This document shows positions 41,179 through 56,851 of a DNA stretch of 60,503 nt, piece by piece. The notes under the pieces are model-generated. The model ran no database searches. It saw only the letters and a list, made by a program, of their open reading frames with translations, and was not told the origin of the DNA. Each line of letters opens with the position of its first letter. The first letter of the stretch is position 1. Both the position numbers and the translations under genes were made by a program. This stretch comes from a virus (taxonomy: Duplodnaviria; Caudoviricetes): positions 1 through 60,503 of IMG/VR virus record IMGVR_UViG_3300021478_000004, one strand, 5' to 3'.

Positions 41179-41191
41179 TGGCTCATATCTC

Positions 41192-42251: not shown

Positions 42252-42596
42252 TCATCGCCCTCGCGAAGTTGACGGCACGCCAGGATCGGGCGTGAACACG
42301 ATCTGCACCGCGACTGCTGCGGGAATGCCGGCCTTGGCGCTGACGGCCACCGCGGCAACCTGAATGGTTTTATTTGCATAGAAACTATTCGCGATGTCTG
42401 ACATGATCGCCACGGCGGCCGTTATGTCGAGCAGCGGATTCGTCCCCTCGGCAAGCGCTGCGGCCAAAACCTGCTGAAATGGAAATGCGTCGAGAAACTG
42501 AAGGAACTCGTTGGCTGGCTTCGTTTGGCCCGACGCAGGTTTGATGCCGGCTATGATCGCCTGGAGGTATTGGCCGATCGTCGAGAGGATCGTCAT
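42252..42596 (-). CDS. Hypothetical protein in the lysis cassette
   Basis: ATGA-coupled to the holin. Confidence 0.6.
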   Translation of the reverse strand: MTILSTIGQYLQAIIAGIKPASGQTKPANEFLQFLDAFPFQQVLAAALAEGTNPLLDITAAVAIMSDIANSFYANKTIQVAAVAVSAKAGIPAAVAVQIVFTPDPGVPSTSRGR

Positions 42597-42889
42597 GCTG
42601 GTCCCTTTAACGGGTGATCGATTGCCGGAGTCATCGCCGTCGCCGGAACGACTTTGACCCCATTATTTGCGGTGTTGACGGCGGCAATCTGAGCGGTTGG
42701 CGTATGCGACCGCGTCTTGTACCAAGCCAAGCCTGCGGCTACGGCTCCGGCCCCTATCATGACAATGTCGTTCGCGAACGATGATTGATCGGCGGAAGGT
42801 ATCAGTCCTTTGCTGGCCGCCCATGCCGCAATGCCTGTCGCGGCATAGCCGGCAACCGTGGTCAAAATGCTCTTGAGTTGCGGGTCCAT
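42593..42889 (-). CDS. Putative holin (2 TM)
   Basis: Two hydrophobic helices; directly downstream of the endolysin. Confidence 0.7.
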   Translation of the reverse strand: MDPQLKSILTTVAGYAATGIAAWAASKGLIPSADQSSFANDIVMIGAGAVAAGLAWYKTRSHTPTAQIAAVNTANNGVKVVPATAMTPAIDHPLKGPA

Positions 42890-42977
42890 TCTCTTATCCC
42901 CTTCCCGGCCTGTTCCAGTGCGCCCGATCTAAGCCGGGATTGCTCACTTCTTCTCTGGAAGCGTGTAAGTCTCGCTG

Positions 42978-43433
42978 TCAGTCATATTGTTCAAGACCGT
43001 TGTGGTTGATCACCGCCATCAGCGCCGCGGGGTAGTTCGGAGCCGTGGCGTAGCCGCATGCGTGCAGGGCTTGGGCGTAGGCGTCGGGGGACTTGGCATC
43101 GATGCAACGCTGATAATGCGGGGACGTGAGAAGCGCGGCATGGGCGTCGAAAGCAGCTTCAAGGGAAGGGTAATTGGCGAACCATTGTTGCTCGGCGACG
43201 TAGCGATGACCGATATACTCGTGGGTCAGGACCAGCCGAGCTTGCCCTGACGCGCGCTGCGCCTGGGTTGCCTTTATGCCAAAAGGATTGTTCACCCCCG
43301 ACAAATGCGCGCCATAGCCTGATTCTACAGCCCACTGAGCGAGCGAGATGGACACGAACGGCCCGCGCGGTGAAAACTTGGCGTGGCTCGCGCGGGCGAT
43401 TGGGATGATGGGGAGAAAGCGGGAATCGGTCAT
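42978..43433 (-). CDS. Endolysin, glucosaminidase (GH73/FlgJ-like)
   Basis: LAQWAVESGYG, NNPFGIKA, T.EY, F..Y.S, GYATAPNY, L..YD. Confidence 0.9.
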   Translation of the reverse strand: MTDSRFLPIIPIARASHAKFSPRGPFVSISLAQWAVESGYGAHLSGVNNPFGIKATQAQRASGQARLVLTHEYIGHRYVAEQQWFANYPSLEAAFDAHAALLTSPHYQRCIDAKSPDAYAQALHACGYATAPNYPAALMAVINHNGLEQYD

Positions 43434-43648
43434 GGCTGTAGATTCCACCGCAGGATGTATGTCGTCTTGTCTTCGCGAACGCACTCATAATGCGGCAGCG
43501 TGCCGTTGCAGTCTCGCGCTGGCTCCTGCTCGCAAAATTCGCGCACAGTGTGAGCTGCAAGATCGGCCACCGGACGACAAATTGTCGGGCCGGGGAGGCA
43601 ACCCATCGCCGTCACCATCGTCGGAACGACCAGCGTGCAGATATCCAT
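43430..43648 (-). CDS. Small Cys-rich protein
   Basis: AAAGGA RBS; 6 Cys. Confidence 0.5.
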   Translation of the reverse strand: MDICTLVVPTMVTAMGCLPGPTICRPVADLAAHTVREFCEQEPARDCNGTLPHYECVREDKTTYILRWNLQP

Positions 43649-43658
43649 TATCCGTCCT

Positions 43659-45944
43659 TTACGGTAGCGCACACGTCGGCATTTTGCCTTGCTGAAAGCA
43701 GTACATCGCAGGCAACAGAACCGACGTCCCGCCACTTCCGCCAGAAGTCGCCCCCGTCGTCGGGCTGACCCACGGCCAAGGATGCGTGCCGAAAAAAGAT
43801 GGCTTGGAGGCTAAGTAGAACGAGTTCGGCAGCGCTGTCGCCGCCCCGGTGCATGCCGTCGTCGCCGCGGAACCGAACGTATAGCAACTCTCAGCGCTAG
43901 ACACCCAATCCCAGTTAGCCAGCCTAGTTATTGTGTTGACTGTGGTCGGGTCGTACGAATTGATTCCGCCTGGAGCCGTGTACTCGCCGAGAATCCACAT
44001 CGGCACATCGTTTCCAGCAATCATAGCGTTATAATCAGTATTAGTCGTGACCTGGACCATAAAGGCGGTCTGCGTCTGGGTACAGGTATAGCCGGGTCGG
44101 CCTGACTCATTGATGAGCGTCTGCCCGCTATATCCTAAAACGTTGCCGACGAAACCGTTGTAGAAACTCGCCTTCTGAACCTGGATTGGAGCTCGGCTAT
44201 CCCCGCGATAATCGCCGTAGTAGATCGTGCCGCAACCGGTGCCGCTAGCCGAATACGTATTAAGCGGCGCGTATCCAGCATTCGGAGGCGATGATGCGCG
44301 AAGTCCCGAGAACCAATTGCGATACGCCGAAATAAAGATTGCTGAACCCCAGTAGGAATCGCCAGCGAAGTTAGCCCCGTAGTTTCCCTCCATAAGTCCT
44401 AGATGCGTCGAGTAGTTGTGGGCGTCGTTCCAACCAGACTCGGGCTCGTCTGGGTAAGTGAAACCGAAGCTATCGTCGCCATAGTTGTACGCTAGAACAT
44501 TGCCGCCACCAGCCGTCTGCATGACGTCATATTTGTTACCATACCACATGACATTGTTCTCAATTAAAGTTTCGGTCGAACCACTGCTGATCGCGGTAAG
44601 ATAGCCCGCGCCGCCGTTTTCCGGCACGGCAGCTTCGTGGATGAATGAATCGCGAATGACGTCGTGATAGCCCCAGGCGATGCAAATGGCGCAACCTGTC
44701 GACCACATCGTCTCGACGTTCTTTACCCAGCAGTAGGCGCACGGATTGCCGCCGCCGTTGCCAAGTCCAATGTTGGTATTGACCCCGCCCCACACGAACA
44801 TGTTCTCGATGCCGCCGCCATGCTGCGGCGTCTGGCTCCAGGTCGTCACCTGCGCGTCGCAACCGCTGCAAGTCGAGGATGTGTGATATGGGTACATGAT
44901 TGGGGTCACGAACGTAATTGTGGCCCCGCTGACGGAAGCAACCTCCTTTTGCTCAGTGATGTTTCTTCCTGTTGCCCTGGTAAAGCCGCTGAAATTATTT
45001 CCGACATAGGTGTTAGGATCGTTGGCGGAATTCTCATCAAGAATTATCAAATCCCCTTGATTGATAGCCGGGCTCGGCGTGGCCGTAAGCGTGACGCTGA
45101 AGGCCCCCTGCACGGCGTCGGCCGCGAGGTCATAGGACGTCCCATAGAAAGTGTTGTTGCGCCACATCGTAAAGAGGCTGTTTGAGCCCGTGCGCGTGGT
45201 CTGGACGAGTTGGGTCGCGGTCGAATCGGTGCAATAATTTCCACCATTGATTGTGACGAGCGTGCCGCCGACGCAGGCACGGATCGCGGTCCCGCCATTG
45301 ACTGGATTGAGGCTCGTGCTCTTTTGAGCACCTGCGCCCGAGCCGCGCATCGTGCATCCGGAGACATCCATGTGGATGCCGCCGTTAACACTGTCGATCT
45401 TGAATACGCCGAGCGAAAGCAGCACGACCTGACCGGCGGGGCAGGCGGCAAGCGCGTTGTTGATCTGCGCCGTGTCGTCACCGCCGCTCGGCGTTAGCGT
45501 CGTGGAGATTGTAGAACGGTTCGGGATGCCGTTTGCCGTCATCGCTATGGGCGAACCTGAACTACCGACCGTCTGTGAGGGGCTGATGGTGTAGGTTCCC
45601 GTGTCTCCCGCGCCGCTCCCCATGGCCGTTATCGTCGTGCCGCTCGTCACCCCTGGCCCGGTGATGGCCTGACTTGGCCCCAGAGCATTGGAATGCGAGG
45701 TCGTGACGGTCAGCGTGGTCCCGGCGATATAGCCCGAGAGCGGGATCGCCTGGAGCCCCGCTGTTTGCCAATTCGCCCATCCGTCTGCCGCAGTCGGGAG
45801 CAGCCCTGCAGTCGGATCGCCGCCTCCACCACCGCCGCCGCCCTGGAGAGTGATGCCTGGGATGAGGAATTGCGCCGCCGCCGAAGCTGCGACGAGCAGC
45901 CCACTAACGAGTGCGGCGCATAGCAGTTTGACGAACGCCCTCAT
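43659..45944 (-). CDS. Beta-helix tailspike/depolymerase-like protein (pectate-lyase-like fold) with signal peptide, 761 aa
   Basis: MRAFVKLLCAALVSGLLVAASAAA|Q; GGDDTAQINNALAACPAGQVVLL..G.F, T.RG.G, CAYCWVKNVE, LIENN. Confidence 0.8.
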   Translation of the reverse strand: MRAFVKLLCAALVSGLLVAASAAAQFLIPGITLQGGGGGGGGDPTAGLLPTAADGWANWQTAGLQAIPLSGYIAGTTLTVTTSHSNALGPSQAITGPGVTSGTTITAMGSGAGDTGTYTISPSQTVGSSGSPIAMTANGIPNRSTISTTLTPSGGDDTAQINNALAACPAGQVVLLSLGVFKIDSVNGGIHMDVSGCTMRGSGAGAQKSTSLNPVNGGTAIRACVGGTLVTINGGNYCTDSTATQLVQTTRTGSNSLFTMWRNNTFYGTSYDLAADAVQGAFSVTLTATPSPAINQGDLIILDENSANDPNTYVGNNFSGFTRATGRNITEQKEVASVSGATITFVTPIMYPYHTSSTCSGCDAQVTTWSQTPQHGGGIENMFVWGGVNTNIGLGNGGGNPCAYCWVKNVETMWSTGCAICIAWGYHDVIRDSFIHEAAVPENGGAGYLTAISSGSTETLIENNVMWYGNKYDVMQTAGGGNVLAYNYGDDSFGFTYPDEPESGWNDAHNYSTHLGLMEGNYGANFAGDSYWGSAIFISAYRNWFSGLRASSPPNAGYAPLNTYSASGTGCGTIYYGDYRGDSRAPIQVQKASFYNGFVGNVLGYSGQTLINESGRPGYTCTQTQTAFMVQVTTNTDYNAMIAGNDVPMWILGEYTAPGGINSYDPTTVNTITRLANWDWVSSAESCYTFGSAATTACTGAATALPNSFYLASKPSFFGTHPWPWVSPTTGATSGGSGGTSVLLPAMYCFQQGKMPTCALP

Positions 45945-46300
45945 GGAAGGGTCGTCCCGCTCCCTGCCGGATAGGTTTGAGCCACCCCGGCCGAGATCAA
46001 CGACAAATTGAACTTGTTGCTGGCCAGCCCGACGACTTGGAGGGCCGCGTCGCTGATGGACACGGCACCAGCCCAATTTGACGGGGAAACGACGCAATTA
46101 AACATCACTGTCCCCGCAGGCGCGGCAGAAGCCAAGCCGGACGCCGCCGCCGTTGGCGTGCATACGGTCCCCGTGGATGCAGGCCCCGACAAGGTAAAAC
46201 TCGGGATAGTCAGCGATGCGGCATGCGCTTTGAAGCGACCTGCGGTAGGAACTGACAGCAGTGCGAGTAGCGCGGTCGACAGAAGGAGCTTTCTCATCAC
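45941..46300 (-). CDS. Secreted beta-rich protein
   Basis: MRKLLLSTALLALLSVPT...AHA| leader. Confidence 0.7.
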   Translation of the reverse strand: MMRKLLLSTALLALLSVPTAGRFKAHAASLTIPSFTLSGPASTGTVCTPTAAASGLASAAPAGTVMFNCVVSPSNWAGAVSISDAALQVVGLASNKFNLSLISAGVAQTYPAGSGTTLP

Positions 46301-46605
46301 TTCGGCCCCGGGACTGGCGCGGGCGCTGGCGGTGCAGGCGGGGCAGGCGGGGCAGGCGGGGGATTCTTCGCCTTCTCCAATTCGTCTTTCAGCTTGACGA
46401 CTTCCGCTTGGGCGCGTGCCAACAGGATCGCCTGTCCGGCTTCTCGCTCGTGTTCTGCTGCAAGCTGGTCCTCGAAGCTCTGCTTCATCGCTGTGATATC
46501 TTCGCCCGTCTGCACGGCTATCATCCCATTTGGCGCGGCGTGCGCGTAGTTCGCGGCAAGGATGATGCCGACTGCGCCGTATTTGATTGCGTGTTTCATT
46601 TGCAT
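46297..46605 (-). CDS. Secreted coiled-coil protein with Pro-rich tail (possible fibre chaperone)
   Basis: AGGAG RBS; MKHAIKYGAVGIILAANYAHA| leader. Confidence 0.65.
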   Translation of the reverse strand: MQMKHAIKYGAVGIILAANYAHAAPNGMIAVQTGEDITAMKQSFEDQLAAEHEREAGQAILLARAQAEVVKLKDELEKAKNPPPAPPAPPAPPAPAPVPGPK

Positions 46606-46622
46606 TTTTCCAGTTCTCCTAG

Positions 46623-49157
46623 TCACATCCCCATTACGGTCCAGTTGCCTAGCTCATTACAGTGAGCCAGCGTGGCGTGAGTTCCATTGGCCGAGATCGT
46701 CACACCAGCATTGCTCGGCGTATTCGCTAGATTGGTCAGCATATTAGCAAAAGCTCCGGAGAGACCAGCGGTTGAGCATGGGGGGAACGTCGTGAAATTG
46801 GCCGGGGGGTTGCCGAAGATGCCGGGCCATTTCAACTCGGCTATGGCTGCGGCTCCCCCGACATTGGTTGAGTTGATTCCTTGCAGAAGACCGCTGCCGC
46901 TGTTGACCATTTGGAATTCAAATCCACCAATAGCGGTATTGGTCTTGATATATTCCGGACCCCACAATATTTCACTACAAAGGTCGGTGGCGCAGCCTGC
47001 ATTCGTTCCTGCAACCATCTTTATAGCGGGACCAGTCACATGATTGCCAACAAGCAGAGCCGTCACAGCGAAATCAATGTTGAGTGCGTTCAACCATGCC
47101 GGGGTTTCCAGCGCTCCGGCCGGCTGCTGGCTTGATATGCGAAGACCATACTGACCCTGTGTCGATCCGAGATTCTCAATGTCGTCAAACCCGGCGAATG
47201 TGCCTCCAGGGGTATAGACAGCTATATGATGCTGATAAGCCACCACATAAGGGTAAGGAACAACCGCGTACTCGATGGCGTCACTGACGGCCCAGGCAGA
47301 AGGCGTGCCGACACTTTCGAAAACGATTTGTCCGGTGATAGTCCCGAAGTTCATTATCAAAGCGCAGGGGGCTATCGTGTAGGTTTTAATAGTTCCGACG
47401 CCAATACCCGAGTAACCGCCCCCTCCAGAAGTATTAGGAGAATTGACGGTCAAATGGGTTGGGTCATCATTGCTGATGATTTGATACCACGATTTCAGCG
47501 GGCCAAGGGTCGTCCCCGGCGTACCATTGAACGGCGCACCCGTATATGTGTCCGCGTCGAGCGCAATGCAGCCAATATTACCATCATTGCCACCAACCAT
47601 GTTATGGGTCCAAGTCGTGCCTGACCCAGTAAAAGTGGCCCCGGAAATGGATGTGACTGTTCCCGTGGTATAAGTTGGCTGTGTGAGGTCGACAGCCCAT
47701 CGCCCCTGACCAGATTGATTGGCCGTGTTCATCTGAATTAGAAGAGCTGGTGTGACGGTGACGCCTGTGGTGGCGGCGACAAGAACAGAGAAACCGGTAT
47801 AAGAGCCCCCGGGAGTCGCGATAGTTGCAGATAGGGAGTCGCCAGCGGTGTAGTTCTTGCCAGGGGTTTGGACGCTGTTTGGTTCTATGAAGGACACAGA
47901 GGTCACAACGCCGCTAGCAATGATGATGGTGGCTTTTGCCAGGGTGCCCGTACCGCCGGCGAGGGCGACATTGGTGTAAGTTCCGTCGCACGTTGATCCT
48001 CCACCTGCGCAGGTTCCCGAAGTGATCGCCCCGAACGTCGCAATTATTCCGTTGTTGTAATTCGCGCGAACGATGCCTGAAATCGTGTTCGTTCCGCAGG
48101 CAGTGATTTGCATCGCCGTTTTGGTATCTTGCGAAGACGCGAATTGCTGAGCAAAAATGACCCAGTCTCCGACGTTACACCCTGTGTTGTCGACGACCGT
48201 GACCGTCTGAACGGTTTTTGCTCCAACTATAGCCTGCGTTGTGACGGTGTTCACGGTCGATTGTGTCGGTACGACAGTTATCGTGGCTAGTGTCAACGCG
48301 CCCAGGGTTTGCTGGAGCAGGTTGACGTCAGTAAATCCTTCGCCCTCGTCTCCAGCTATCGGGCCGTTATAAAAATACACGAACGTCGTGTTGGCTGCAC
48401 AATCGCTTTTTCCGCCGTAACACGTTATCTGATCACCCGTAAGCAACCTCTGCCCGGAGGCGAGATAAGTGCCCTGAATCAGCAATGCCTGCATCGTGGT
48501 TTTAACTGAATTGGTTCCATAATATAATGATGAGAAAATTGCATCTCCTTGAGTTACTGATTGCTGGTCCCAAATACAAACATTATCATGGAATCCGGAT
48601 GTAGGGAGGAGAACATTGTTGCCTACACAACTGAATTCGTTGGAAAATATGTCAGTGGTAAGTCCTGACGCGTTGGCATTTGGCCCCTGCGTAAAAATAC
48701 CCCCGGGCAGAGTCCCTGTCCCCAGCGTAAGAATGCCGGCCCCATATTTGATCTGGTTGTTGTCGCCAAGAAGGAGGTTTCCGCTAGACGAAAGCAGGCC
48801 GCTGTTAGCGCTCACGTTGAGGAAAGCGACATTGCCGATCGTCCCCGTGGTCGCTGGAAACGTGATCGTCTTCGAGCCCAGCGCGCCTGTGGTCGGCTGC
48901 AATACAATCGTACCGCTCGTCGCATTCCCCATCGTGATCGAGCCGAGCGTGCCGCTCTTGCCGAGTTGCAGGCCTCCGGGAGAGGTATAGACGACATTGC
49001 CGCTATCGCCTCCGAGGGAGAACGCGCCGCCCGTAGCCGTGAGACCTCCCGTAGGGGAGGCCGTAGCGGGGCTACCGCCGTTCCGCACCGACTGCGCAAG
49101 CGTCGGCGACGCCAGCAACAGGCATACGACCATGGCGAATAGAGGCTTCATCATCAT
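46623..49157 (-). CDS. Tail fibre/adhesin-like protein with signal peptide (844 aa), paralog of 52795..54852
   Basis: MKPLFAMVVCLLLASPTLA|Q; GNATSGTI.LQP..GALG...IT.PATTGT fibre motif; Thr/Gly-rich. Confidence 0.75.
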   Translation of the reverse strand: MMMKPLFAMVVCLLLASPTLAQSVRNGGSPATASPTGGLTATGGAFSLGGDSGNVVYTSPGGLQLGKSGTLGSITMGNATSGTIVLQPTTGALGSKTITFPATTGTIGNVAFLNVSANSGLLSSSGNLLLGDNNQIKYGAGILTLGTGTLPGGIFTQGPNANASGLTTDIFSNEFSCVGNNVLLPTSGFHDNVCIWDQQSVTQGDAIFSSLYYGTNSVKTTMQALLIQGTYLASGQRLLTGDQITCYGGKSDCAANTTFVYFYNGPIAGDEGEGFTDVNLLQQTLGALTLATITVVPTQSTVNTVTTQAIVGAKTVQTVTVVDNTGCNVGDWVIFAQQFASSQDTKTAMQITACGTNTISGIVRANYNNGIIATFGAITSGTCAGGGSTCDGTYTNVALAGGTGTLAKATIIIASGVVTSVSFIEPNSVQTPGKNYTAGDSLSATIATPGGSYTGFSVLVAATTGVTVTPALLIQMNTANQSGQGRWAVDLTQPTYTTGTVTSISGATFTGSGTTWTHNMVGGNDGNIGCIALDADTYTGAPFNGTPGTTLGPLKSWYQIISNDDPTHLTVNSPNTSGGGGYSGIGVGTIKTYTIAPCALIMNFGTITGQIVFESVGTPSAWAVSDAIEYAVVPYPYVVAYQHHIAVYTPGGTFAGFDDIENLGSTQGQYGLRISSQQPAGALETPAWLNALNIDFAVTALLVGNHVTGPAIKMVAGTNAGCATDLCSEILWGPEYIKTNTAIGGFEFQMVNSGSGLLQGINSTNVGGAAAIAELKWPGIFGNPPANFTTFPPCSTAGLSGAFANMLTNLANTPSNAGVTISANGTHATLAHCNELGNWTVMGM

Positions 49158-49912
49158 TGATAATCCGCGCTTATGTAGGCCGTGTCCGTGCCGGTGGTGA
49201 ACGTGAACGGATTCGCAGCCGTCGACACCAGGATCACGATCCCGGTTCCGTATTGTCTGGGGAATGGAATGCGATCCAGCGAACAACCCATCGCACCAGC
49301 GGCGAACTGGCAACTATCAAGCACCTGCGCTCCTGTGAGCGAGCTACCGGGGACGGTCGTAGAGTTGTACGCGATACACCATCCCGCCGCGCCACCCACC
49401 ACGTTGCAGTAGAATCCGTAGAGGTTCCCGGCCGAGGCCTTGCAGATGTGCGAGGCCTCCATCGCCGTGCTCGAACATGTGCTCGTCGCCGCGGACGATG
49501 CGCTCGATGGCAGTTGATTGGCCGCCGTAGCAGCGCCATTCAGCGTTCCAAGATTAAATGTCGGAGTCGCGGCAAACGCCGGAAGAGTGCTACCAGCCAG
49601 AGAGGCAAAGATCGGATTGCTGGACGAAAGGACCGACCCGCCCTGCATCAGCACGACGGCGAGCGGGACGCCTCCGGTCAGTCCTTGGACTGCGAGGCCG
49701 TTTGTTCCCGGGGTTCCGGCTGGATTTACTGACGCCAGGACGGCACATGCTGCACCGTCACAGATAGCGCCGTTACCAAATAACTTGCTCGCCCCGTCCG
49801 TCCCAAATCTAAATGGGGTAGTCGAGCCGGGATTGGCTAAAAATGTCGTCTGTGCTAGCGCTGGCGAACTCAGCCCTAGCGCCAACAGAATCGCGGCGAC
49901 CTTCAGTCTCAT
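49154..49912 (-). CDS. Secreted virion-type protein (252 aa)
   Basis: MRLKVAAILLALGLSSPALA|Q; TLPAFAATPTFN, GAATAANQ, KASAGNLYG motifs. Confidence 0.7.
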   Translation of the reverse strand: MRLKVAAILLALGLSSPALAQTTFLANPGSTTPFRFGTDGASKLFGNGAICDGAACAVLASVNPAGTPGTNGLAVQGLTGGVPLAVVLMQGGSVLSSSNPIFASLAGSTLPAFAATPTFNLGTLNGAATAANQLPSSASSAATSTCSSTAMEASHICKASAGNLYGFYCNVVGGAAGWCIAYNSTTVPGSSLTGAQVLDSCQFAAGAMGCSLDRIPFPRQYGTGIVILVSTAANPFTFTTGTDTAYISADYQ

Positions 49913-50106
49913 TGAAACGGCTCCGCTAGTATGAAGATATATTGGCTGTTGCAAGGGTCGCTGAAATCAAACGAGTTCGAGCACGCAGGAGGCGTTCCTC
50001 CCGTCGCGACGATTCCTTGGAGCAGAAATTGCGCGATGGTGTCCGTGCTCCCGAGGATCGAGGCGCAGACGCCGATCAGCAGGGCGGCGATAAAATTTCT
50101 CTGCAT
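49909..50106 (-). CDS. Small secreted protein
   Basis: Leader ...DTIA|QFLLQGI; CSNSFDFS..CNSQY. Confidence 0.6.
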   Translation of the reverse strand: MQRNFIAALLIGVCASILGSTDTIAQFLLQGIVATGGTPPACSNSFDFSDPCNSQYIFILAEPFQ

Positions 50107-52352
50107 CAGAAGAACTCGACGACGATTATCAAGCCAGGCCCGCCGTTGCCGCCCGCGCCGGGAACACCGCCGTTGGTCATGGAACCGCCACCGCCACCGC
50201 CGGACGCGATCCCTCCGAGACCGCCGTTGCCGGCCGTTCCAGATATTCCCGAACCGCCGCCACCCGCGCCCGTACCGGCGGCAAACAACGCGGTTCCCGC
50301 TCCGGTAATCCCAGGATTCCCGGAAGAACCGGCCGCGCCGCCAGTTGCGCCAGACTGGTTTGCACCCGTGCCAAAGAGCGCGCCGCCGTTGCCACCGGCA
50401 GTGGCGGCATTAGCCGCTGAAACTCCGCCGCCAGCACCGCCGCCAGCACCGCCGTTGTAGGCGAGGAATCCGACCCCTCCGAGGGCTCCATTAGCGCCGA
50501 TGCCGCCCGCCGACCCGGAGTATGTGGTGGTCGCACTAGCGCCGCTGCCGCCTCCGGGAGCCCCGGCGGTGCCGTTGGTTGCGCTGGTGGCATTTCCACC
50601 TTGGCCGGAAAGACCCGCGCCACCACCACCGCCTGCGGCCGCAGCTAGTTGTCCTCCAGCGCCACCGCCACCGCGTATCCCTGCGAGTATTATGGGGCCA
50701 GGTGCGCCGAATGAGCTATTGCCTACCGCTGAAACGCCGTTGCCTCCGGCCGTCGTATTGGCCGTAGCCGCTAGGCCACCCGTGCCACTGATGCCGACGG
50801 TCATGGTTTGCGAGGCTCCAATTACGGCCGCCGTGAACCTGCCGACGTTCAGGCTTCCGCCGCCACCACCGCCAGCGCCCGAAACTGCTGTCGAAGCAAC
50901 TTGCAGAGCTCCACCGCCGCCCCCGCCGCCGCCTCCATAGGCATAAACATCACAGATCACCATTCCAGCGGTCGGCGTATAGGTCTGAGTGATAGCCGCC
51001 CAAGTGATGACGAACGTGCCGCCCGTTCCCACCCCTGACGTGCTTCCCTGCGTCGATGGATTGCTCGTGGGGAGAACCGTGCAGCTTCCCGCTGTCGTAA
51101 CGGCTAGCGCTGTGATCGCTCCGGCGCTGGCGGTGACGGTCAGGACGGGCGCAGTCGAACACGTCCCGCCCGTCGTCGACACGGTGATCGTATCGTTGGT
51201 GACGTAGCCAGACCCCACTGCCGCGACGGCGGCCGATCCGACTTTCGCGAGCTGCGAAAAGGTTTGGATGTTTGGCGCGTGATGAATGACGCTCGATGCC
51301 AGTATGCCGGAATCCTGAAGCGTCTGTCCGCCCGTGCCGTTGAACGACACGAGGTTGCCGCTTACCGAGGAGCCTGGGCCTGACGCCGTACCCAGCGTCA
51401 CGGAGGCGGAAGGGAATGTGTATGTGAAGCCCGCCGCTCCAAAGGCAAGCGTGGTAGTCCCCGCGCCCGTGGTCGTCAGCGGGCCGCCGAGCGTCAGCGC
51501 CTTGCCGTTGATCGACGTGCAGGTGATGTTCGGGGCCGTGAACGTGCAATCGCCGCCGAGGGTAAAGGTGCTCGGCGCTGCGCCAGCCCCTCCGCCCTCC
51601 ACGAGAGAGCCCGCGGCAAGCGCGGCGCTCGACGCCCATGTGGTGGCCGAACTGAAATAGGAAATACCGCCGCTCGTGCCTGCCACTGTGAAGGCTGGGG
51701 TCGTGGTGGGCGTCGCGACGCTGATCAATCCACCAGCGAAGCTGGCGCTGGTGACGGTTCCTGTTCCTCCGGGAGCTCCGCCGTCTTGCAGCAGTTGCCC
51801 CGTCGCCCCGCTGAACGTTGCGATATGCCCGCTCGTCGCGCTCGGTGGCCCGCGCACATAAGGACCACCCCCGCATTGCCAGTTAGTTCCGTCGAACGCG
51901 ATACCGACCCCTTGGTTCTGTTGCAGCACGACCGTCGCCGAACCGCAAATCGTTCCCGTCGTGGGGGTGATCGTTTCAGCGCCTGCGCCGGTATTTACAA
52001 TGTTGATGAAATTGTTGGCGACGAAAGACGCTGTTGGCAGGCTCGGCGCGCGAGGGGTTCCGTCAGAAAGGATGACCAACTTGCCACAATCGGAGGCAAG
52101 GAACGTGTACGCGCTCCCGGCCGCCGGGGCATTGGGGACGACGGCCCCGCTAACCGTCCCGCTCGTGGTGATCGGTCCGCCGGAGACGCCGCAGGACGTG
52201 GCGACCGAGGTGACGGTGCCTGTTCCGCCGCCGCCTCCCCCGCCGCCGCTGCCCCCACTGCCCTGCCCGAGGGGAACCGGCGGCCAGTTCTGGGCGAGCG
52301 CCGATGTGGCGAACAGCGCAGCCGCGAAGAGAGCGGCGATTATCCGCTTCAT
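50106..52352 (-). CDS. Glycine-rich tail fibre-like protein with signal peptide (748 aa)
   Basis: MKRIIAALFAAALFATSALA|Q; GTGTVTSV repeats, GP.S..SG....F.G.TG..LQD repeats, TYTPTAGM...GGGGGG to G.GGPG.IIV.EF glycine-rich domain. Confidence 0.8.
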   Translation of the reverse strand: MKRIIAALFAAALFATSALAQNWPPVPLGQGSGGSGGGGGGGGTGTVTSVATSCGVSGGPITTSGTVSGAVVPNAPAAGSAYTFLASDCGKLVILSDGTPRAPSLPTASFVANNFINIVNTGAGAETITPTTGTICGSATVVLQQNQGVGIAFDGTNWQCGGGPYVRGPPSATSGHIATFSGATGQLLQDGGAPGGTGTVTSASFAGGLISVATPTTTPAFTVAGTSGGISYFSSATTWASSAALAAGSLVEGGGAGAAPSTFTLGGDCTFTAPNITCTSINGKALTLGGPLTTTGAGTTTLAFGAAGFTYTFPSASVTLGTASGPGSSVSGNLVSFNGTGGQTLQDSGILASSVIHHAPNIQTFSQLAKVGSAAVAAVGSGYVTNDTITVSTTGGTCSTAPVLTVTASAGAITALAVTTAGSCTVLPTSNPSTQGSTSGVGTGGTFVITWAAITQTYTPTAGMVICDVYAYGGGGGGGGGALQVASTAVSGAGGGGGGSLNVGRFTAAVIGASQTMTVGISGTGGLAATANTTAGGNGVSAVGNSSFGAPGPIILAGIRGGGGAGGQLAAAAGGGGGAGLSGQGGNATSATNGTAGAPGGGSGASATTTYSGSAGGIGANGALGGVGFLAYNGGAGGGAGGGVSAANAATAGGNGGALFGTGANQSGATGGAAGSSGNPGITGAGTALFAAGTGAGGGGSGISGTAGNGGLGGIASGGGGGGSMTNGGVPGAGGNGGPGLIIVVEFF

Positions 52353-52362
52353 GAACTCAGCC

Positions 52363-52767
52363 TCAGTTGTTGGTGTAATAGAGTACGTCTAGCGTCGCGC
52401 TCCCGCTGACGGCGATGAACCGCATAGCCTGGAGTTGGACGAGCGATCCTCCGTAAACAGCAGGTCCGATAGTCCAGAGGTTACCTAACGTCGTCGTCGG
52501 ATTGGTCCCGTCATCCAACATTCTGATGGACGCAGTTTCGACCGTAAACTCCGCTATCGTCGCCGTAGGAGGAACTGTTAGCGCCACTACGGCTCCCGAT
52601 GTGATCGTCAGTTGCTGATGGGTGTTCGGCCCAGCCGACTTGAACATATTGATAGGCGCGGTAGCTATGAGACCTCCACCGCCCGCGCCAGTGTTGTTTT
52701 GCGCTGCGGACGGCGCGGCGGAGATCGCAAGCAAGATCACCGCGAGAAGCGGCTTGCGGAGTTTCAT
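52363..52767 (-). CDS. Secreted small beta protein
   Basis: MKLRKPLLAVILLAISAAPSAA|Q; LTVP..A...E...IR..DDGT.PT...G. Confidence 0.75.
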   Translation of the reverse strand: MKLRKPLLAVILLAISAAPSAAQNNTGAGGGGLIATAPINMFKSAGPNTHQQLTITSGAVVALTVPPTATIAEFTVETASIRMLDDGTNPTTTLGNLWTIGPAVYGGSLVQLQAMRFIAVSGSATLDVLYYTNN

Positions 52768-52794
52768 GTCTTGGATTCCTTCAGTCGGAGGCCC

Positions 52795-54852
52795 CTAGTT
52801 GGCCATCACAGTCCAATTGGTCCCGTTGCAATGCGCCTTGACGGGTAGGAAGGCTCCATTGCTGGAAATCGTCGCGCCAAAGGGGGTGTTTACGTTCGCG
52901 AGCATCTCGGCCGTCGATCCTGAGAGCGCGCTGGAGCAAGCCGGGAATGTGGAGAAATTCGTCGGCGTCGTCGTGACAATTCCCGGCCATAGCAGTTCGG
53001 ACTTGACTGTCGCACCGCCTGCGACGACGCCCGAACCGATCGCCTGCAAGAGACTATTTGACCCTTCAGTCATGTTGAAGTCCATACCCTGATTGGCGGT
53101 ATTCGGCCGAATATAAGCTGCACTCCACTGTATTTCACCGCAATTATCCGAGGCGCAACCATCAAATATCCCCTGCGCCATCTTGATCGCTGGCCCGGTC
53201 ACATGGGTTCCGACGAGTAGCGCCGTGACGGAAAAATCAATGTTCAACGCATCCAGCCAAGCCGGAGTCTGCAGTGCGCCCGCAGGCTGTCGCCCGTTTA
53301 TCCTGATGCCGTATTCGCCTTGCGCGGAACCAGTATTTTCAATATCCTCAAATCCCTCGAATGTTCCGCCAGGCGTCCAGCTTTGGATGTGATATTGACT
53401 GGCGACAATGTAGGGAAACGGAACAATTGCCGTCTCTACGAGATCACCCACAGCCCATGTTGAGGTCGAGGTTTCGAGGACAACAAGACCAGTTACGGAG
53501 CCATTGGTGTTTCCTAGGTATAGTATTTCGGCGCATGGATAAATTTTGTAGGTGTGCGTGGTTCCGACGCCAATGCCGGAATAATTTCCGGCCCCGGCGG
53601 TGTTTGGAGAGTTCACGCCAAGATGCGTCGCGTCGGTGAAATTGATAATTTGGTAGTAAGAATGCAGGGGTCCGTTTGCTGCCGGAGCCACACCATTGAA
53701 CGGAGAACCCGTGTATGTATCTGCATCGAGCGCGATGCAGCCGATATTGGTGGCATTGCCGCCTACCATATTGGCGGCCCAAGTCGTTCCTGATCCGGTG
53801 AAGATATTGCCGGCAATCGAAGCAACCGTACCCGTCGCGTATGTCGGCTGGCTCAGGTCTACCATGACCCGGTTCTGACCTGTCTGGAATGTAGAGTTGA
53901 AGGTGAGAACCTTGGCCGGGGTAACGGTGACGCCACTAACGTAATTGGCCCTGACAATGCCTTGAATCGTGTTCGTCCCGCATGCGGTGATCTGCATCGC
54001 GGTCTTGGAATCCTGCGCGGAAGGAAGCTGCTGGGCCAGCACAACCCACTGCCCGACGACGCAGCCGGTGGAACTGGCTACCGTAATCGTCTGGGCAGTT
54101 TTAGACGCCGCGATGATCTGAGTGGTGGTCGTGTTGACGGTAGATTGCGCGGGTTGCGTGCCGGTAATTGTCGACAGCGACAGGAATCCTTGCTGCGAGA
54201 GCAGATTTACGTCGGTAAATCCGCTTCCCTCATCACCCGCAATTGGCCCGCTCGCAAAGGTGACAAAGGTCGTTTTGGCGGCGCAGTCGCTGGACCCTCC
54301 GTAGCAAGTTATTATCTCCCCCGTCAGAAGCCGCTGTCCGGACGCGAGATAGGTTCCATTAATGTCCAACGCCTTCATTGTCGACTTGGCTTGCGTCGTT
54401 CCGAACGACAGCGACGAAAATATCGCATCCCCATTAATTGCGTTGATGTTGATCTCTGCGCAGTTGGCATCCGTAAACCCAGGGGTCAGCGTCGCGTTGG
54501 TGACGCCACAGGTAGCGCTGATTGATGTATGGTTGGTTGGTTGAGCAAGAACGTCGGAATCGAACCCGACGACATTCACACCCGCTCCTATGGATGAACT
54601 TCCCAAATTGAGATACGCGGCCGTGCCGCCGATTATGACGAACGGCGATGGCGCGGCTATGGTGGCTCCCCAGCCAGCGCCGAGGCCGCTCCCGGTCTGC
54701 TGCGCGACCGACAACAGCGACGCATCGGTCGCCGAACGCTCTGCCGACGTGCCGTTGCCGATGACGTGGCCGGACTTTATCGTCTGCGCATGCGCGGAAC
54801 AGACAAATAGGATCGCGAAGATAGCGGCGGCGATGCGTGTGATTGAGGTCAT
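52795..54852 (-). CDS. Tail fibre/adhesin-like protein with signal peptide, paralog of 46623..49157
   Basis: MTSITRIAAAIFAILFVCSAHA|Q; long collinear similarity to the 844-aa protein. Confidence 0.75.
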   Translation of the reverse strand: MTSITRIAAAIFAILFVCSAHAQTIKSGHVIGNGTSAERSATDASLLSVAQQTGSGLGAGWGATIAAPSPFVIIGGTAAYLNLGSSSIGAGVNVVGFDSDVLAQPTNHTSISATCGVTNATLTPGFTDANCAEININAINGDAIFSSLSFGTTQAKSTMKALDINGTYLASGQRLLTGEIITCYGGSSDCAAKTTFVTFASGPIAGDEGSGFTDVNLLSQQGFLSLSTITGTQPAQSTVNTTTTQIIAASKTAQTITVASSTGCVVGQWVVLAQQLPSAQDSKTAMQITACGTNTIQGIVRANYVSGVTVTPAKVLTFNSTFQTGQNRVMVDLSQPTYATGTVASIAGNIFTGSGTTWAANMVGGNATNIGCIALDADTYTGSPFNGVAPAANGPLHSYYQIINFTDATHLGVNSPNTAGAGNYSGIGVGTTHTYKIYPCAEILYLGNTNGSVTGLVVLETSTSTWAVGDLVETAIVPFPYIVASQYHIQSWTPGGTFEGFEDIENTGSAQGEYGIRINGRQPAGALQTPAWLDALNIDFSVTALLVGTHVTGPAIKMAQGIFDGCASDNCGEIQWSAAYIRPNTANQGMDFNMTEGSNSLLQAIGSGVVAGGATVKSELLWPGIVTTTPTNFSTFPACSSALSGSTAEMLANVNTPFGATISSNGAFLPVKAHCNGTNWTVMAN

Positions 54853-55430
54853 CTCTGATACCATCCACCGCTAGTTAGCGGATAGAACGTCTTCGCGCCG
54901 CCATCCACATCGATCAGCGCCACGCCGTTCGCGACCGCCGCCGCCGCGGAAAAGCCGTCGAGCGTTTCTCCGGAAGACGGGACGAATGTTATGTTGTTCG
55001 TATTGGCGTCATAGGTCAGGTCTTTGACGGTAATCGGCAGTCCGTTGCCGTAGCGCAAGGACGATGCAGGAAGATTGATCGTGGACGGTCCGGAAGGCGA
55101 TTTCTGAAGCAAGATGGTGGGGACATCGGTCGGTGTTACCGCTACAGCCCCTGCCGCCGTCACCGTCCTATAAGCGATGTTGCCGCCGCCTCCGCCTCCC
55201 CCGCTACCGGCCAGAGACGCAGCAGTTACGTAGTTCCAACCTCCGCTAGCGGTATCGTAAACCGCGACAATTTGCGTTGGCGTTTGTCCGGGAGCCAGCG
55301 CGAGCAACTGATAGTTAGGCTTGATCGTCCAAATGCCGTTCGCTTTGGCGACGGTGATGAACGCGCCGCCCTGCACCAGCGCCGGGAAGGGAATGCGGAC
55401 GTTGACGCGGATGTTGGCGGGAAGGGTCAC
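54849..55430 (-). CDS. Tail-associated adaptor protein (no signal peptide), GTG start
   Basis: VTLPANIRVN..FPA.V.G; C-terminal TINLP...TVKD....A..NNIT....GET.DG fibre-junction module. Confidence 0.65.
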   Translation of the reverse strand: MTLPANIRVNVRIPFPALVQGGAFITVAKANGIWTIKPNYQLLALAPGQTPTQIVAVYDTASGGWNYVTAASLAGSGGGGGGGNIAYRTVTAAGAVAVTPTDVPTILLQKSPSGPSTINLPASSLRYGNGLPITVKDLTYDANTNNITFVPSSGETLDGFSAAAAVANGVALIDVDGGAKTFYPLTSGGWYQR

Positions 55431-55852: not shown

Positions 55853-55858
55853 CGATGG

Positions 55859-56851
55859 TCACAACTTTATATGCCATGTGCCCAACACGAATGCGGCCAT
55901 ATTGTTGTGCGCCCCGTTGCCTGCGTGATCGGTGAGTGTGAGTCCGGTTGTAGCCGTAGCGGTGGTCGCGTCGAATGTGATGATCGTGCCGCCTGGGAAG
56001 GCGTTGGCTCCCCCCGATGGGACGGCGACCGCAAATCCTGTGGCGGGGCTCAGCGGCGCGTGAGAATGCGGAACCTCCGCGTTCATCGTCAACTGGCCCG
56101 CAGGGGCCTCGGCGACCACGAGTCGATGGTTGCTCTCCCCGCCCGAAGCCGCGGGCGTAGTCGGCCCGTCACCGCCACCTGACGTGACATTGCCGGCGAG
56201 GATGATCCCGGCCGCGCTGGCCCCCATGTCGTCGAGGCCGGTGAGAACTCTCGCGCGCCAGTCCGGAAGCTGTATCGTCTTGTTAGCCGAGAAATCGGCC
56301 AGCGCGCTCGCGCCTCGCGCTCCGGCTACGGGGCAATGCGCGTTCGTGAAATTGTTCCACAGATAGACGTAAAGGTTCTGGGTGTCCGCGTTGGCTCTCT
56401 GGGACGCCCCCGAACTCGCCGAGCCGATCGTCTGGCCATTGACCTTTACCCAGCCCGTCAGAACCTCGCTAGTCGCGCGGAATTTGACGTCGCCGGTCGC
56501 GGCTACCGTCGTCGGATCGACCGAACCGCCTCCCCCGCCGCCACCGCCGCCACCGCCGGAGGAAGGGCCGATCACTTGCATGGTGGGGTAGTCGAAGACG
56601 ACGACGCCGCTAGAGTCGGTGAGTCGGACGTGTATTTGCCCGTCCGCCAAATAGAACATCGGAATGCGGCCGAACTGATCCGCCGCCAGCGGGTTCGGGT
56701 TTTTAAGCGTCAGGCCGAAGTCCTGAAAAGAATCCTGCGGCGTGCCCACCGTACCGGCCTGGAAGAAATATAGCAGCGCGCCAGCCATCGGTTGCGCGGG
56801 GCTCGTGGCCGTGAATTGCTGCGTCAGGGCGATCGGCAAAGTCCCTGCCAT
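55859..56851 (-). CDS. Proximal tail fibre with head-binding-like N-terminus and tail-collar domain (no signal peptide)
   Basis: P.AG.LYFF.AGT..TPQ...D......NP..AD..GR; TGDVK...GWV..NGQTI, LPD.R.RV..G.D, GGE..H.L...E.P, G.AHNN. Confidence 0.8.
   Translation of the reverse strand: MAGTLPIALTQQFTATSPAQPMAGALLYFFQAGTVGTPQDSFQDFGLTLKNPNPLAADQFGRIPMFYLADGQIHVRLTDSSGVVVFDYPTMQVIGPSSGGGGGGGGGGGSVDPTTVAATGDVKFRATSEVLTGWVKVNGQTIGSASSGASQRANADTQNLYVYLWNNFTNAHCPVAGARGASALADFSANKTIQLPDWRARVLTGLDDMGASAAGIILAGNVTSGGGDGPTTPAASGGESNHRLVVAEAPAGQLTMNAEVPHSHAPLSPATGFAVAVPSGGANAFPGGTIITFDATTATATTGLTLTDHAGNGAHNNMAAFVLGTWHIKL

What the first reader, a model, noticed from the sequence alone, without database searches (positions are those of the whole stretch)
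43659..54852. Nine consecutive tail fibre/spike-region genes all encode Sec signal peptides: a candidate system for extracytoplasmic virion appendage assembly
Seen: every gene from 54852 down to 43659 starts with a basic-hydrophobic-AxA leader (MTSITRIAAAIFAILFVCSAHA, MKLRKPLLAVILLAISAAPSAA, MKRIIAALFAAALFATSALA, MQRNFIAALLIGVCASILGSTDTIA, MRLKVAAILLALGLSSPALA, MKPLFAMVVCLLLASPTLA, MKHAIKYGAVGIILAANYAHA, MRKLLLSTALLALLSVPT...AHA, MRAFVKLLCAALVSGLLVAASAAA). The larger mature parts carry typical fibre/spike motifs (GTGTVTSV repeats, glycine-rich tip domain, beta-helix) and many closely spaced Cys. The genes are mostly translationally coupled in the late operon. The three upstream tail genes (54849-56851) have no leader. 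Established: tailed-phage virions assemble in the cytoplasm and their fibres normally lack signal peptides; structural disulfides form in the periplasm (DsbA/B). Inference: receptor-binding appendages are exported, folded oxidatively, and dock on cytoplasmically built adaptors at or after lysis. Alternatively they act as a secreted adhesin/depolymerase array.
Basis: partly seen in the sequence, partly recalled or inferred. Interest (0 to 1): 0.9.

Follow-up and report, generated by a model that had tools for sequence, protein, structure and literature searches.

The report
Phage outer virion proteins with export leaders
A complete soil-type phage genome gives nine tail-region proteins in a row, and also its capsid cement protein, the export leaders of secreted proteins, and related phages put the same leader on their tailspike, which suggests that these phages finish building their particles outside the cytoplasm.

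Summary
The window is a complete 60.5-kb podophage genome. Its nine coupled genes from 54852 to 43659 all start with textbook Sec/signal-peptidase-I leaders, seven of them ending AxA|Q. A run of nine by chance has P <= 7e-6. Five more leader genes exist, including the gene after the major capsid gene, whose model matches podophage capsid cement proteins (Z 9-11).

The decisive evidence comes from relatives. The window's leaderless tail protein (55859-56851) has a head-binding domain matching the one solved in the cyanophage Pam1 virion (E 6e-12). In 5 of 15 aligned viral homologs and 5-6 of 17 Bradyrhizobium-family prophage homologs, a 19-25-residue leader is fused exactly in front of the same mature N-terminus (AGT...). 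There is no start codon at the junction. It is the only copy in three complete genomes. Homolog families of g9, g1/g6, g3 and g5 mix leader-bearing and leaderless forms.

Best reading (about 0.5): outer virion parts are exported, folded in the periplasm and dock on filled particles when the holin opens the inner membrane. Export itself is about 0.85 likely. Whether the nine array proteins join the virion is unproven; none has the head-binding domain. Four literature searches found no description of this.

The parts
52795..54852 (-). g1, 685 aa, predicted leader MTSITRIAAAIFAILFVCSAHA|Q, 12 Cys in the mature part. It is a paralog of g6. The start overlaps the stop of the upstream leaderless gene (ATGA).
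52363..52767 (-). g2, 134 aa, predicted leader ...AAPSAA|Q, small and strand-rich, no Cys
50106..52352 (-). g3, 748 aa, predicted leader ...ATSALA|Q. After the leader come a poly-Gly stretch, tail-fibre repeats (GTVTSV type) and a glycine-rich C-terminal half. There is no alternative in-frame start in residues 2-90.
49909..50106 (-). g4, 65 aa, leader, 2 Cys. The mature N-terminus QFLLQG resembles that of g9 (QFLIPG).
49154..49912 (-). g5, 252 aa, predicted leader ...SSPALA|Q, 8 Cys. Its C-terminal ~110-aa beta-sandwich domain belongs to a very large family of mostly leader-bearing proteins.
46623..49151 (-). g6, 842 aa, predicted leader ...ASPTLA|Q, 14 Cys. It is a paralog of g1 (60% identity over the C-terminal 400 aa).
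46297..46599 (-). g7, 100 aa, weaker leader ...ANYAHA|A, then a coiled-coil-like stretch and a PAPP-rich tail. A start further upstream (GTG 46626) is possible.
45941..46297 (-). g8, 118 aa, predicted leader ...RFKAHA|A, 2 Cys. The mature N-terminus SLTIPSFTLSG is shared with some g9 homologs.
43659..45944 (-). g9, 761 aa, predicted leader ...VAASAAA|Q, 16 Cys. It has a small tail-fibre-type domain (aa 66-136) and probably a right-handed beta-helix (aa ~139-753). There is no alternative in-frame start in residues 2-90.
55859..56851 (-). Leaderless tailspike/fibre (called tail330 here). It has an N-terminal head-binding domain, a poly-Gly linker and a tail-collar-like C-terminal part (the tail-collar label is recalled). 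Relatives carry a Sec leader fused in front of the same mature N-terminus.
54849..55430 (-). Leaderless 193-aa protein (GTG start overlapping the upstream stop). Its N-terminal ~75 aa are conserved among relatives. It always lies directly upstream of the first large leader-bearing protein, which makes it a candidate adaptor.
5352..5876 (-). Gene directly after the major capsid gene, 174 aa, predicted leader MFSKLIKSALAVLLLACFAFVPASA|L. The model has the jelly-roll fold of podophage capsid cement proteins.
42978..43484 (-). Endolysin (Glucosaminidase domain) without a leader, which implies holin-dependent release
42593..42889 (-). Holin-like two-TM protein. The Phage_holin_10 match is 24.7 bits, under the 27-bit cut-off.
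41192..41521 (-). Further leader protein, 109 aa, 3 Cys
40254..40583 (-). Lipoprotein-type leader (lipobox LLAGC), 109 aa, Thr/Pro-rich tail. It may be a spanin or an exclusion protein.
39198..39587 (-). Leader or N-terminal anchor protein, 129 aa
38338..39201 (-). Leader protein, 287 aa, with a long coiled-coil-like middle and a C-terminal hydrophobic segment

Best explanation
The window is a complete genome of a Pam1-like podophage whose nearest held relative by capsid protein is a prophage in a Bradyrhizobium chromosome.

In this lineage the proteins that sit on the outside of a finished particle are made as Sec preproteins. These are the capsid cement protein, the tailspike in many relatives, and an array of receptor-binding or depolymerase-like proteins (g1-g9 here).

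Proposed mechanism:
1. Late transcription of one coupled operon produces them.
2. SecYEG exports them, and signal peptidase I removes the leader.
3. They fold, oligomerise and form disulfides in the periplasm.
4. Meanwhile capsids are assembled, packaged and fitted with portal, adaptor and nozzle in the cytoplasm.
5. When the holin opens the inner membrane, or at lysis, the two pools mix. The outer parts then dock, as the last assembly step.

The small leader proteins g2, g4, g7 and g8 may be periplasmic helpers or connectors.

Shown here: the leaders, their conservation, the exact fusion to a head-binding domain, and the cement-like fold. Inferred: export, cleavage, periplasmic folding, docking after membrane breach, and virion membership of g1-g9.
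For: 1. Leaders.
- All 9 of 9 array genes have a canonical n/h/c organisation. They form a run that chance would give with P <= 7e-6. The operon is tightly coupled.
- g3, g4 and g9 have no in-frame ATG, GTG or TTG in residues 2-90.

2. Leaders are kept in the homolog families.
- g9: 83 of 120. g1/g6: 18 of 36. g3: 45 of 120. g5: 122 of 150.

3. The tailspike.
- The profile of the tail330 family matches PDB 7EEQ_A 'Tailspike head-binding domain' from residue 2 (E 6.3e-12). 7EEQ is a Pam1 tail entry (passages in PMC13730344).
- In 5 of 15 aligned viral homologs a 19-23-aa leader sits exactly in front of AGT/QGT, for example ...LWLPARA|AGTLPIALTQQ against leaderless MAGTLPIALTQQ. There is no start codon at the junction.
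- It is the only copy in three complete direct-terminal-repeat genomes.
- Five clear cases and one doubtful case occur among 17 prophage homologs found in 301 genomes of the Bradyrhizobium family. One is in the B. oligotrophicum S58 chromosome, whose prophage capsid protein is 78% identical to the window's.

4. The cement protein.
- The gene after the capsid gene has a leader in 5 of 6 aligned relatives.
- The only four PDB chains with Z >= 8 against its model are podophage capsid cement proteins: GP4 10.8, Pam1 10.1, KHP30 10.0, KHP40 9.1; the next chain scores 7.6. The Foldseek top four are the same.

5. The pattern is coherent.
- No homolog of portal, capsid, scaffold, terminase, nozzle or internal proteins was flagged in any genome examined.

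6. Cys is three times denser in the mature leader proteins.

7. A distant complete relative, G004 (terminase 44% identical), also has nine consecutive leader genes at the same place, although only one of them is homologous to a window gene.

8. g1 shares its leader plus 33 mature residues (71% identity) with a protein that is otherwise unrelated. This is the modular pattern of receptor-binding proteins.

9. The endolysin has no leader, so a holin step that mixes the compartments exists.

Recalled, not tested: P22 tailspikes and T4 fibres can be added to particles in vitro; holin lesions are large.
Against: - No experiment and no SignalP run. The leader calls rest on my own rule, which had at least one false negative (L216 797-aa protein).
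- None of g1-g9 has the head-binding domain, and no docking domain is identified.
- Leaderless g1 relatives start with an extra ~35-aa N-terminal segment (MPYTITH...) that g1 lacks. The leader may therefore have replaced an attachment module.
- The g9 beta-helix family is common in bacterial genomes as leader- or lipoprotein-type proteins that are not visibly in prophages. The g5 family is overwhelmingly leader-bearing, with unknown context for most members. Both facts fit ordinary secreted proteins.
- The window's own tailspike is leaderless, so this phage can build a spike in the normal way.
- The cement model is of middling confidence (pLDDT 63.5).
- Cys counts in leader-bearing and leaderless tailspikes do not clearly differ.
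- Time for docking during lysis is short (inference).
Confidence: 0.5

Rival explanations
1. The nine array proteins are exported but never join the virion. They are a late-expressed set of free periplasmic or released proteins: depolymerases, adhesins, receptor maskers or receptor destroyers. They would clear or block surface polysaccharide so that progeny are not trapped on debris, or exclude superinfecting phages. Only the tailspike and cement protein of relatives would be exported virion parts.
For: - No head-binding domain in g1-g9.
- Leader-bearing g1 relatives lack the N-terminal segment of leaderless ones.
- g9-type beta-helix proteins with leaders or lipoboxes are widespread in bacterial genomes. 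Leader-like N-termini occur in 48 of 71 with an intact 5' end, and no other window gene matched nearby.
- The g5 family is 122 of 150 leader-bearing.
- The window already has a leaderless tailspike.
- The array content is not conserved between relatives.
Against: - The same lineage demonstrably puts leaders on a head-binding tailspike and a cement-like protein, so a leader does not exclude virion membership.
- The array sits where podophage fibre genes sit and is translationally coupled to the tail genes.
- g1's N-terminal module is conserved while its C-terminal part is swapped.
- g3 carries tail-fibre repeats shared with proteins that have the Peptidase_S74 fibre chaperone domain.
- A Sec leader alone only reaches the periplasm of a diderm, so a surface or external role still needs lysis.
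Confidence: 0.3
2. The hydrophobic N-termini are not cleaved export signals. They would be membrane tethers that hold outer parts at the inner membrane, or pro-peptides removed in some other way, and assembly would stay cytoplasmic.
For: - Export is untested.
- Some leaders are atypical (g7 scores 3.6; g8 has a long c-region).
- sp129 and sp287 look like anchors rather than leaders.
Against: - Seven of nine have AxA|Q sites at the usual distance from the h-region.
- In the tailspike the predicted cut reproduces the leaderless mature N-terminus exactly in 5 of 5 viral cases.
- A positive-inside n-region followed by a short h-region gives translocation of the C-terminal part (established topology rules, recalled).
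- Cys enrichment fits the periplasm.
Confidence: 0.1
3. Annotation artefact: the real starts lie downstream and skip the hydrophobic stretch, or the leaders are chance features of GC-rich, Ala/Leu-rich coding sequence.
For: - The genome has 59% G+C with many Ala and Leu codons.
- g2, g6, g7 and g8 have in-frame alternative starts within 90 residues.
Against: - The other 47 called genes in the same genome score below threshold even when every start in the first 70 codons is tried.
- g3, g4 and g9 have no alternative start.
- The starts overlap the upstream stops.
- The leaders are conserved in distant homologs.
- Tailspike junction codons are GCG, GGC or GCC, not start codons.
Confidence: 0.03

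Closest known systems
Pam1/P22-type podophage tailspike with N-terminal head-binding domain, added as the last assembly step
   Same: The window's 55859-56851 protein and its relatives share the head-binding domain with the one solved in the Pam1 tail (7EEQ, E 6e-12). Capsid, portal and nozzle synteny are also podophage-like. Late addition of spikes to finished heads, possible in vitro, is known for P22 (recalled).
   Different: In the known systems the spike is cytoplasmic and has no leader. Here 5 of 15 viral and 5-6 of 17 prophage homologs carry a Sec-type leader in front of that domain.
Podophage capsid cement proteins (Pam1 gp6, GP4 gp1, KHP30 gp15)
   Same: The gene sits directly after the capsid gene. 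The model has the same jelly-roll fold, with Z 9-11 (names from passages in PMC13730344).
   Different: The window's protein and 4 of 5 aligned relatives have a 25-31-aa Sec-type leader. I know of no cement protein with one (recalled, not searched for specifically).
Filamentous phage (Inovirus) coat proteins
   Same: These are virion proteins made with leaders, inserted or exported by host Sec/YidC, and assembled outside the cytoplasm (recalled).
   Different: Those phages extrude without lysis and have no capsid-packaging machinery. This genome has terminase, portal, capsid protein, holin and endolysin.
Sec- or SAR-exported endolysins, spanins, T4 RI antiholin
   Same: These are phage late proteins that use host Sec and signal peptidase (listing only: PMC8385771, PMC8541568).
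   Different: Those are lysis proteins, not virion parts. Here the endolysin is leaderless.
Lambda Lom/Bor-type morons next to tail genes
   Same: Leader-bearing envelope proteins encoded beside tail-fibre genes (recalled).
   Different: Morons are single small genes with their own promoter and terminator (recalled). Here nine genes of up to 842 aa are translationally coupled to tail genes, and promoter-like and terminator-like sites are not above shuffled expectation.
Acidianus two-tailed virus
   Same: A virion structure completed outside the host cytoplasm (recalled).
   Different: It is an archaeal virus. Its tails grow from material already in the released particle, without an export leader.

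Membership tests
Sec-type (signal peptidase I) signal peptide | Positively charged n-region, uncharged hydrophobic h-region of about 7-15 residues, c-region with small residues at -3 and -1 | tested here: met
   All 9 of 9 array genes meet it, as do the cement-like gene and 41192-41521. This is my own rule; SignalP was not available.
Sec-type (signal peptidase I) signal peptide | Actual translocation and cleavage | not testable with these tools
   Needs PhoA/BlaM fusions or N-terminal proteomics.
Podophage tailspike with head-binding domain (Pam1/P22 type) | N-terminal head-binding domain homologous to one solved in a virion | tested here: met
   Met for 55859-56851 and its family: 7EEQ_A E 6.3e-12, query positions 2-66.
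Podophage tailspike with head-binding domain (Pam1/P22 type) | The same domain in g1-g9 | tested here: not met
   An HMM of the domain finds only 55859-56875 in all window ORFs of at least 50 aa at E <= 1e-3.
Right-handed beta-helix depolymerase / pectate-lyase superfamily (g9) | Match to the Beta_helix or Pectate_lyase_3 profiles | tested here: inconclusive
   g9 itself has 0 Pfam hits at E <= 0.01. Distant homologs (27-35% identity) carry PF12708 or PF13229 in precomputed annotation. The family profile gives a 40-residue match to polygalacturonase 1BHE at E 5e-4.
Capsid cement protein (Pam1 gp6-like jelly roll) | Jelly-roll fold like solved cement proteins, and a gene adjacent to the major capsid gene | tested here: met
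   Z 10.8, 10.1, 10.0 and 9.1 to four cement proteins, next chain 7.6. Foldseek E 1.4e-4 to 7EEL_H. The gene lies 66 nt downstream of the capsid gene. The model's pLDDT is only 63.5.
Capsid cement protein (Pam1 gp6-like jelly roll) | Trimer bound on the capsid surface | not testable with these tools
   Needs virion proteomics or cryo-EM.
Phage tail fibre with repeat shaft (g3) | Shares shaft repeats with proteins that carry fibre-specific domains | tested here: met
   747 proteins match the N-terminal 470 aa. The matches cover 7-56% of the query at 34-88% identity. Among the listed ones, several carry PF13884 Peptidase_S74. The GTVTSV-type motif recurs in them.
Lambda-type moron | Autonomous transcription unit (own promoter and terminator) inserted between phage genes | tested here: not met
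   Junctions are -4 to +27 nt through the whole array. Seven promoter-like sites against 6.8 expected, and 11 terminator-like sites against 16.5 expected.
Inovirus-type membrane assembly | No capsid-packaging machinery; extrusion without lysis | tested here: not met
   Terminase, portal, capsid protein, endolysin and a holin-like gene are present.

The most novel reading that the evidence does not exclude
A whole lineage of tailed phages of soil Alphaproteobacteria (Bradyrhizobium and kin) has split virion assembly between two compartments. DNA-filled core particles are built in the cytoplasm. Every externally added part (cement protein, tailspike, fibres or depolymerases) is a Sec-exported, disulfide-bonded periplasmic protein. 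Infectious virions form only in the moments after the holin breaches the inner membrane. Leader gain and loss on the same gene is a frequent evolutionary switch between the two routes.
Probability: 0.4. Interest if true: 0.95.

Novelty: categorically new. Interest (0 to 1): 0.85.

Why it matters
Tailed-phage assembly is taught as wholly cytoplasmic. If outer parts are routinely exported and added after membrane breach, several things follow:
- Holin timing would become an assembly step.
- Host Sec, signal peptidase and Dsb functions would become phage dependency factors.
- Fibre-less intracellular particles would be the norm in these phages.
- Leader-bearing 'hypothetical secreted proteins' in metagenomes and bacterial genomes would need re-reading as possible virion parts.
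- Periplasmic folding would offer a route to disulfide-stabilised receptor-binding proteins.

The idea is directly testable, because a related prophage with a leader-bearing tailspike lies in a cultured, non-pathogenic bacterium, Bradyrhizobium oligotrophicum S58 (record title).

Tried and rejected
- Pfam on the nine proteins gave 0 hits. PHROGs gave only a short g9 hit. PHROGs on homologs of g1 and g9 gave almost nothing.
- Megablast of 43659-60503 and tblastn of g1 against 50,697 deposited phages gave no match. The best deposited capsid relative is 34% identical.
- g1 as a single query found no relative in viral contigs. The two-sequence alignment of the 566-aa protein gave poor search patterns and only 2 loci.
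- The terminase alignment found 454 relatives, too broad to define the lineage.
- PDB sequence searches found nothing for g1 and g3. For the cement-like family they gave only chance-level rows with E >= 0.1.
- The g5 model has a confident C-terminal beta-sandwich (pLDDT > 90) but no PDB match at E <= 0.001. Only generic jelly-roll rows appeared.
- The ESM Atlas gave no usable lead for g1; scores were <= 0.84 and TM <= 0.23.
- An HMM of the g5 domain found no member in the other loci I held at that time.
- Complex prediction of the 193-aa leaderless protein (3 copies) with g1 residues 23-140 (3 copies) gave the verdict 'no answer'. This is no evidence either way.
- I considered morons, spanins as an explanation for the whole array (its members are too large and too many), and a Tat signal (no twin-arginine motif in the nine leaders). 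I rejected all three.
- Four literature searches (titles and abstract starts only) listed no paper on Sec-exported tail fibres, tailspikes or cement proteins. This covers open-access text only, and supplements were closed.
- The sequencing-run tools and the metagenome scan were not used.

Full report
**What the window is.** The window is a whole IMG/VR virus record of 60,503 bp with a 127-bp terminal repeat. The minus strand carries one long late operon. In order it encodes:
- large terminase (15834-14332)
- portal (10308-8329)
- a scaffold-like gene
- major capsid protein (7105-5942)
- a nozzle-like 'Hc3' protein (4052-1959)
- a structural protein (1744-833)
- an SLT-domain internal protein that runs across the record's ends
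- a 566-aa protein
- a tail protein (56851-55859)

After two small genes come the nine genes of the finding. They are followed by a leaderless Glucosaminidase endolysin, a holin-like gene, an HNH endonuclease and four more envelope-type genes. No deposited phage is close. Megablast and a g1 tblastn found nothing. The best capsid matches are 34% (a phage record, CBW1004C-Prop1) and 31% (Pseudanabaena phage Pam1).

**The observation.** All nine ORFs are present, and each starts with a basic residue or two, an uncharged hydrophobic stretch and a small-x-small site. Seven of the predicted sites are followed by Gln. With a simple rule of my own (SignalP is not among the tools) all nine score 3.6-5.7.

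Of the 58 genes my crude caller found, the 47 outside 38338-54852 all score below 3.5, even when every start in the first 70 codons is tried. Five further leader genes exist: 41192-41521, a lipobox gene at 40254-40583, 39198-39587, 38338-39201, and the gene directly after the capsid gene (5876-5352).

Given 14 labelled genes among about 60, a run of nine has P <= 7e-6. The array is coupled, with junctions of -4 to +27 nt, and the first gene's ATG overlaps the stop of the leaderless gene before it. g3, g4 and g9 have no in-frame ATG, GTG or TTG in residues 2-90, so a leaderless isoform cannot arise from those start codons. Mature leader proteins have 1.73 Cys per 100 aa, against 0.55 in the leaderless structural and packaging proteins.

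**What the nine proteins are.** Pfam finds nothing. PHROGs matches only g9 residues 66-136 to a tail-fibre family. The rest comes from homolog families.

- **g9.**
  - It has at least 168 relatives. Distant ones carry Pectate_lyase_3 or Beta_helix in precomputed annotation, and the family profile touches the N-cap of polygalacturonase.
  - 83 of the 120 listed relatives start with a leader.
  - The beta-helix part occurs in 39 viral loci and 79 bacterial genome loci. Leader-like N-termini are found in 23 of 37 and 48 of 71 of them respectively.
  - In a related phage fragment (G002) a leaderless homolog sits inside the structural module.
- **g1 and g6** are paralogs. Of 36 family members, 18 have leaders. 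Many of the others begin with a shared leaderless segment, MPYTITH.... g1 and an otherwise unrelated 564-aa protein share the leader plus 33 mature residues at 71% identity. This is the conserved-N, swapped-C pattern of receptor-binding proteins.
- **g3** shares short shaft repeats with 747 proteins, some carrying the Peptidase_S74 fibre chaperone domain. 45 of the 120 listed have leaders.
- **g5** has a C-terminal domain that defines a family of at least 504 clusters, and 122 of the 150 listed have leaders. The domain folds as a confident beta-sandwich with no significant PDB match. In 9 of the 12 other viral loci where the matching gene was called, it has a leader. It is often followed by another leader gene whose mature end begins Q(I/L)VLP.

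**The evidence that changes the picture.** The leaderless tail protein at 55859-56851 has 22 homolog loci in viral contigs. A profile of 15 of them matches the 'Tailspike head-binding domain' chain of PDB 7EEQ from residue 2 (E 6.3e-12). 7EEQ is a tail entry of cyanophage Pam1 (passages in PMC13730344).

Ten of the 15 start MAGT.., MAGS.. or similar. The other five (L220, L221, L224, L226, L230) carry a 19-23-residue leader whose predicted cut falls exactly before AGT.., AGS.. or QGT... The processed protein therefore begins where the leaderless one begins after Met removal. The junction codons are GCG, GGC or GCC, so no start codon is available there. In three complete terminal-repeat genomes (59.0, 60.6 and 43.1 kb) this leader-bearing gene is the only copy.

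The same holds in cultured bacteria. The chromosome titled Bradyrhizobium oligotrophicum S58 strain E20 holds a prophage with capsid protein 78%, nozzle 63% and portal 53% identical to the window's. Its tailspike reads ...ISALVGCGAPVWA|AGTTPF. In a sample of 301 genomes of that family, 21 have a match. Among 17 distinct open frames with the head-binding domain, five clearly have a leader and one doubtfully does.

**The cement protein.** The gene after the capsid gene has a strong leader in the window and in four of five aligned relatives; G008 lacks it. Its AlphaFold model is of middling confidence (pLDDT 63.5). Even so, the top four Foldseek hits, which are also the only four chains with Z >= 8 in the second look, are all podophage capsid cement proteins: GP4, Pam1 7EEL_H, KHP30 and KHP40. 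Their Z scores are 9.1-10.8, against 7.6 for the next chain.

**The pattern.** In the genomes examined (window, G002, G004, G006-G008, the S58 prophage and the 22 tail loci), no homolog of terminase, portal, scaffold, capsid, nozzle or internal proteins was flagged. The flagged genes are those whose products sit on the outside of a finished particle, plus lysis or envelope genes. G004 is a distant complete relative (terminase 44% identical). It has nine consecutive leader genes at the same position, although only its g9 homolog (29% identity) matches a window gene. The leader property is thus conserved while the content turns over.

**Interpretation.** Export of these proteins is the straightforward reading; I put it at about 0.85. 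A sole-copy tailspike with a virion-attachment domain behind an obligatory leader is hard to explain unless exported protein reaches the particle. The simplest route is docking once the holin has opened the inner membrane or the cell has lysed. Late, even in-vitro, addition of spikes and fibres is known for P22 and T4 (recalled).

For the nine genes of the window, virion membership remains an inference:
- They lack the head-binding domain.
- No docking partner is identified.
- A complex prediction with the upstream 193-aa protein gave no answer.
- The g9 and g5 families look like ordinary secreted proteins in many contexts.

I therefore give 0.5 to the full export-and-dock model and 0.3 to 'exported but free'. 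The rest goes to tether or pro-peptide readings and to artefact.

**Novelty.** Four full-text searches (I saw listings only) returned nothing on Sec-exported tail fibres, tailspikes or cement proteins, and I recall no such case. The nearest known things are filamentous-phage coat proteins, exported endolysins and spanins, lambda morons, and the extracellular tail growth of an archaeal virus. None of them is a tailed phage that adds exported outer parts to cytoplasmic particles.

Noticed in passing
window 2-460 with 58551-60503 (minus strand): The SLT-domain internal virion gene runs across the record's ends. The 3'-open ORF at 2-460 is in frame with 58551-60497 through the 127-bp terminal repeat, giving a product of about 760 aa.
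   Followed up: partly
window 41509-42141 (minus strand): An HNH endonuclease with a C-terminal HTH sits between the lysis genes and the downstream leader genes. HNH homologs also lie near g9 homologs in loci L011, L024 and L222.
   Followed up: no
window 38338-39201 (minus strand): A 287-aa protein with a leader, a long coiled-coil-like middle and a C-terminal hydrophobic segment. It has a weak DUF16 hit and a weak PHROG 'hemolysin' hit. Its role is unknown.
   Followed up: no
window 46297-46599 (g7) and 40254-40583: g7 is a leader followed by a coiled-coil-like stretch and a PAPPAPP tail. The lipobox protein ends in TPKPTPTPTPN. Both look like envelope-spanning linkers. No clear spanin pair was identified.
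   Followed up: no
G001 (loci L128-L131), record positions 19426-27895: An unrelated complete 62.7-kb viral record has three consecutive leader-bearing giants of 1467, 609 and 764 aa. The last is a 49%-identical g9 homolog.
   Followed up: partly
proteins P0008-P0011, P0017, P0029, P0045, P0047, P0061, P0080, P0085 and others: Many g9 homologs from different contigs share a nearly identical leader (MRFIRR.LMAASYVLVFLGSAQAQ) but have different mature N-terminal domains. It looks as if the leader-coding 5' end is a recombination handle.
   Followed up: no
L274-L277 (B. oligotrophicum S58 chromosome, about 5,755,050-5,757,000): In the related prophage the gene after the 193-aa protein's homolog starts with a leader and a g1-like N-terminal module (MINWKSFTAGLVLAALSLTTTHA|QGVGQLKAGQVWGN). 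The reading frame then changes before the rest of the protein. This may be a broken gene or a sequencing error.
   Followed up: partly
L220 and L221, tailspike homologs: Two of the leader-bearing tailspikes have an extra Cys-x(8-9)-Cys insertion inside the head-binding domain that all the leaderless ones lack. It may be a disulfide gained after the switch to export.
   Followed up: partly
L253, L254, L257, L259, L260, L264, L265: In other viral contigs that share few or no other genes with the window, a leader-bearing g5-like gene is followed by a leader gene whose mature N-terminus begins Q(I/L/V/T)(V/I)LP. This recurring two-gene module lies inside what look like structural regions.
   Followed up: partly
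G008 (L250-L252), record positions 37605-38378: A 257-aa ORF with 37 Cys in a related 43-kb phage genome.
   Followed up: no
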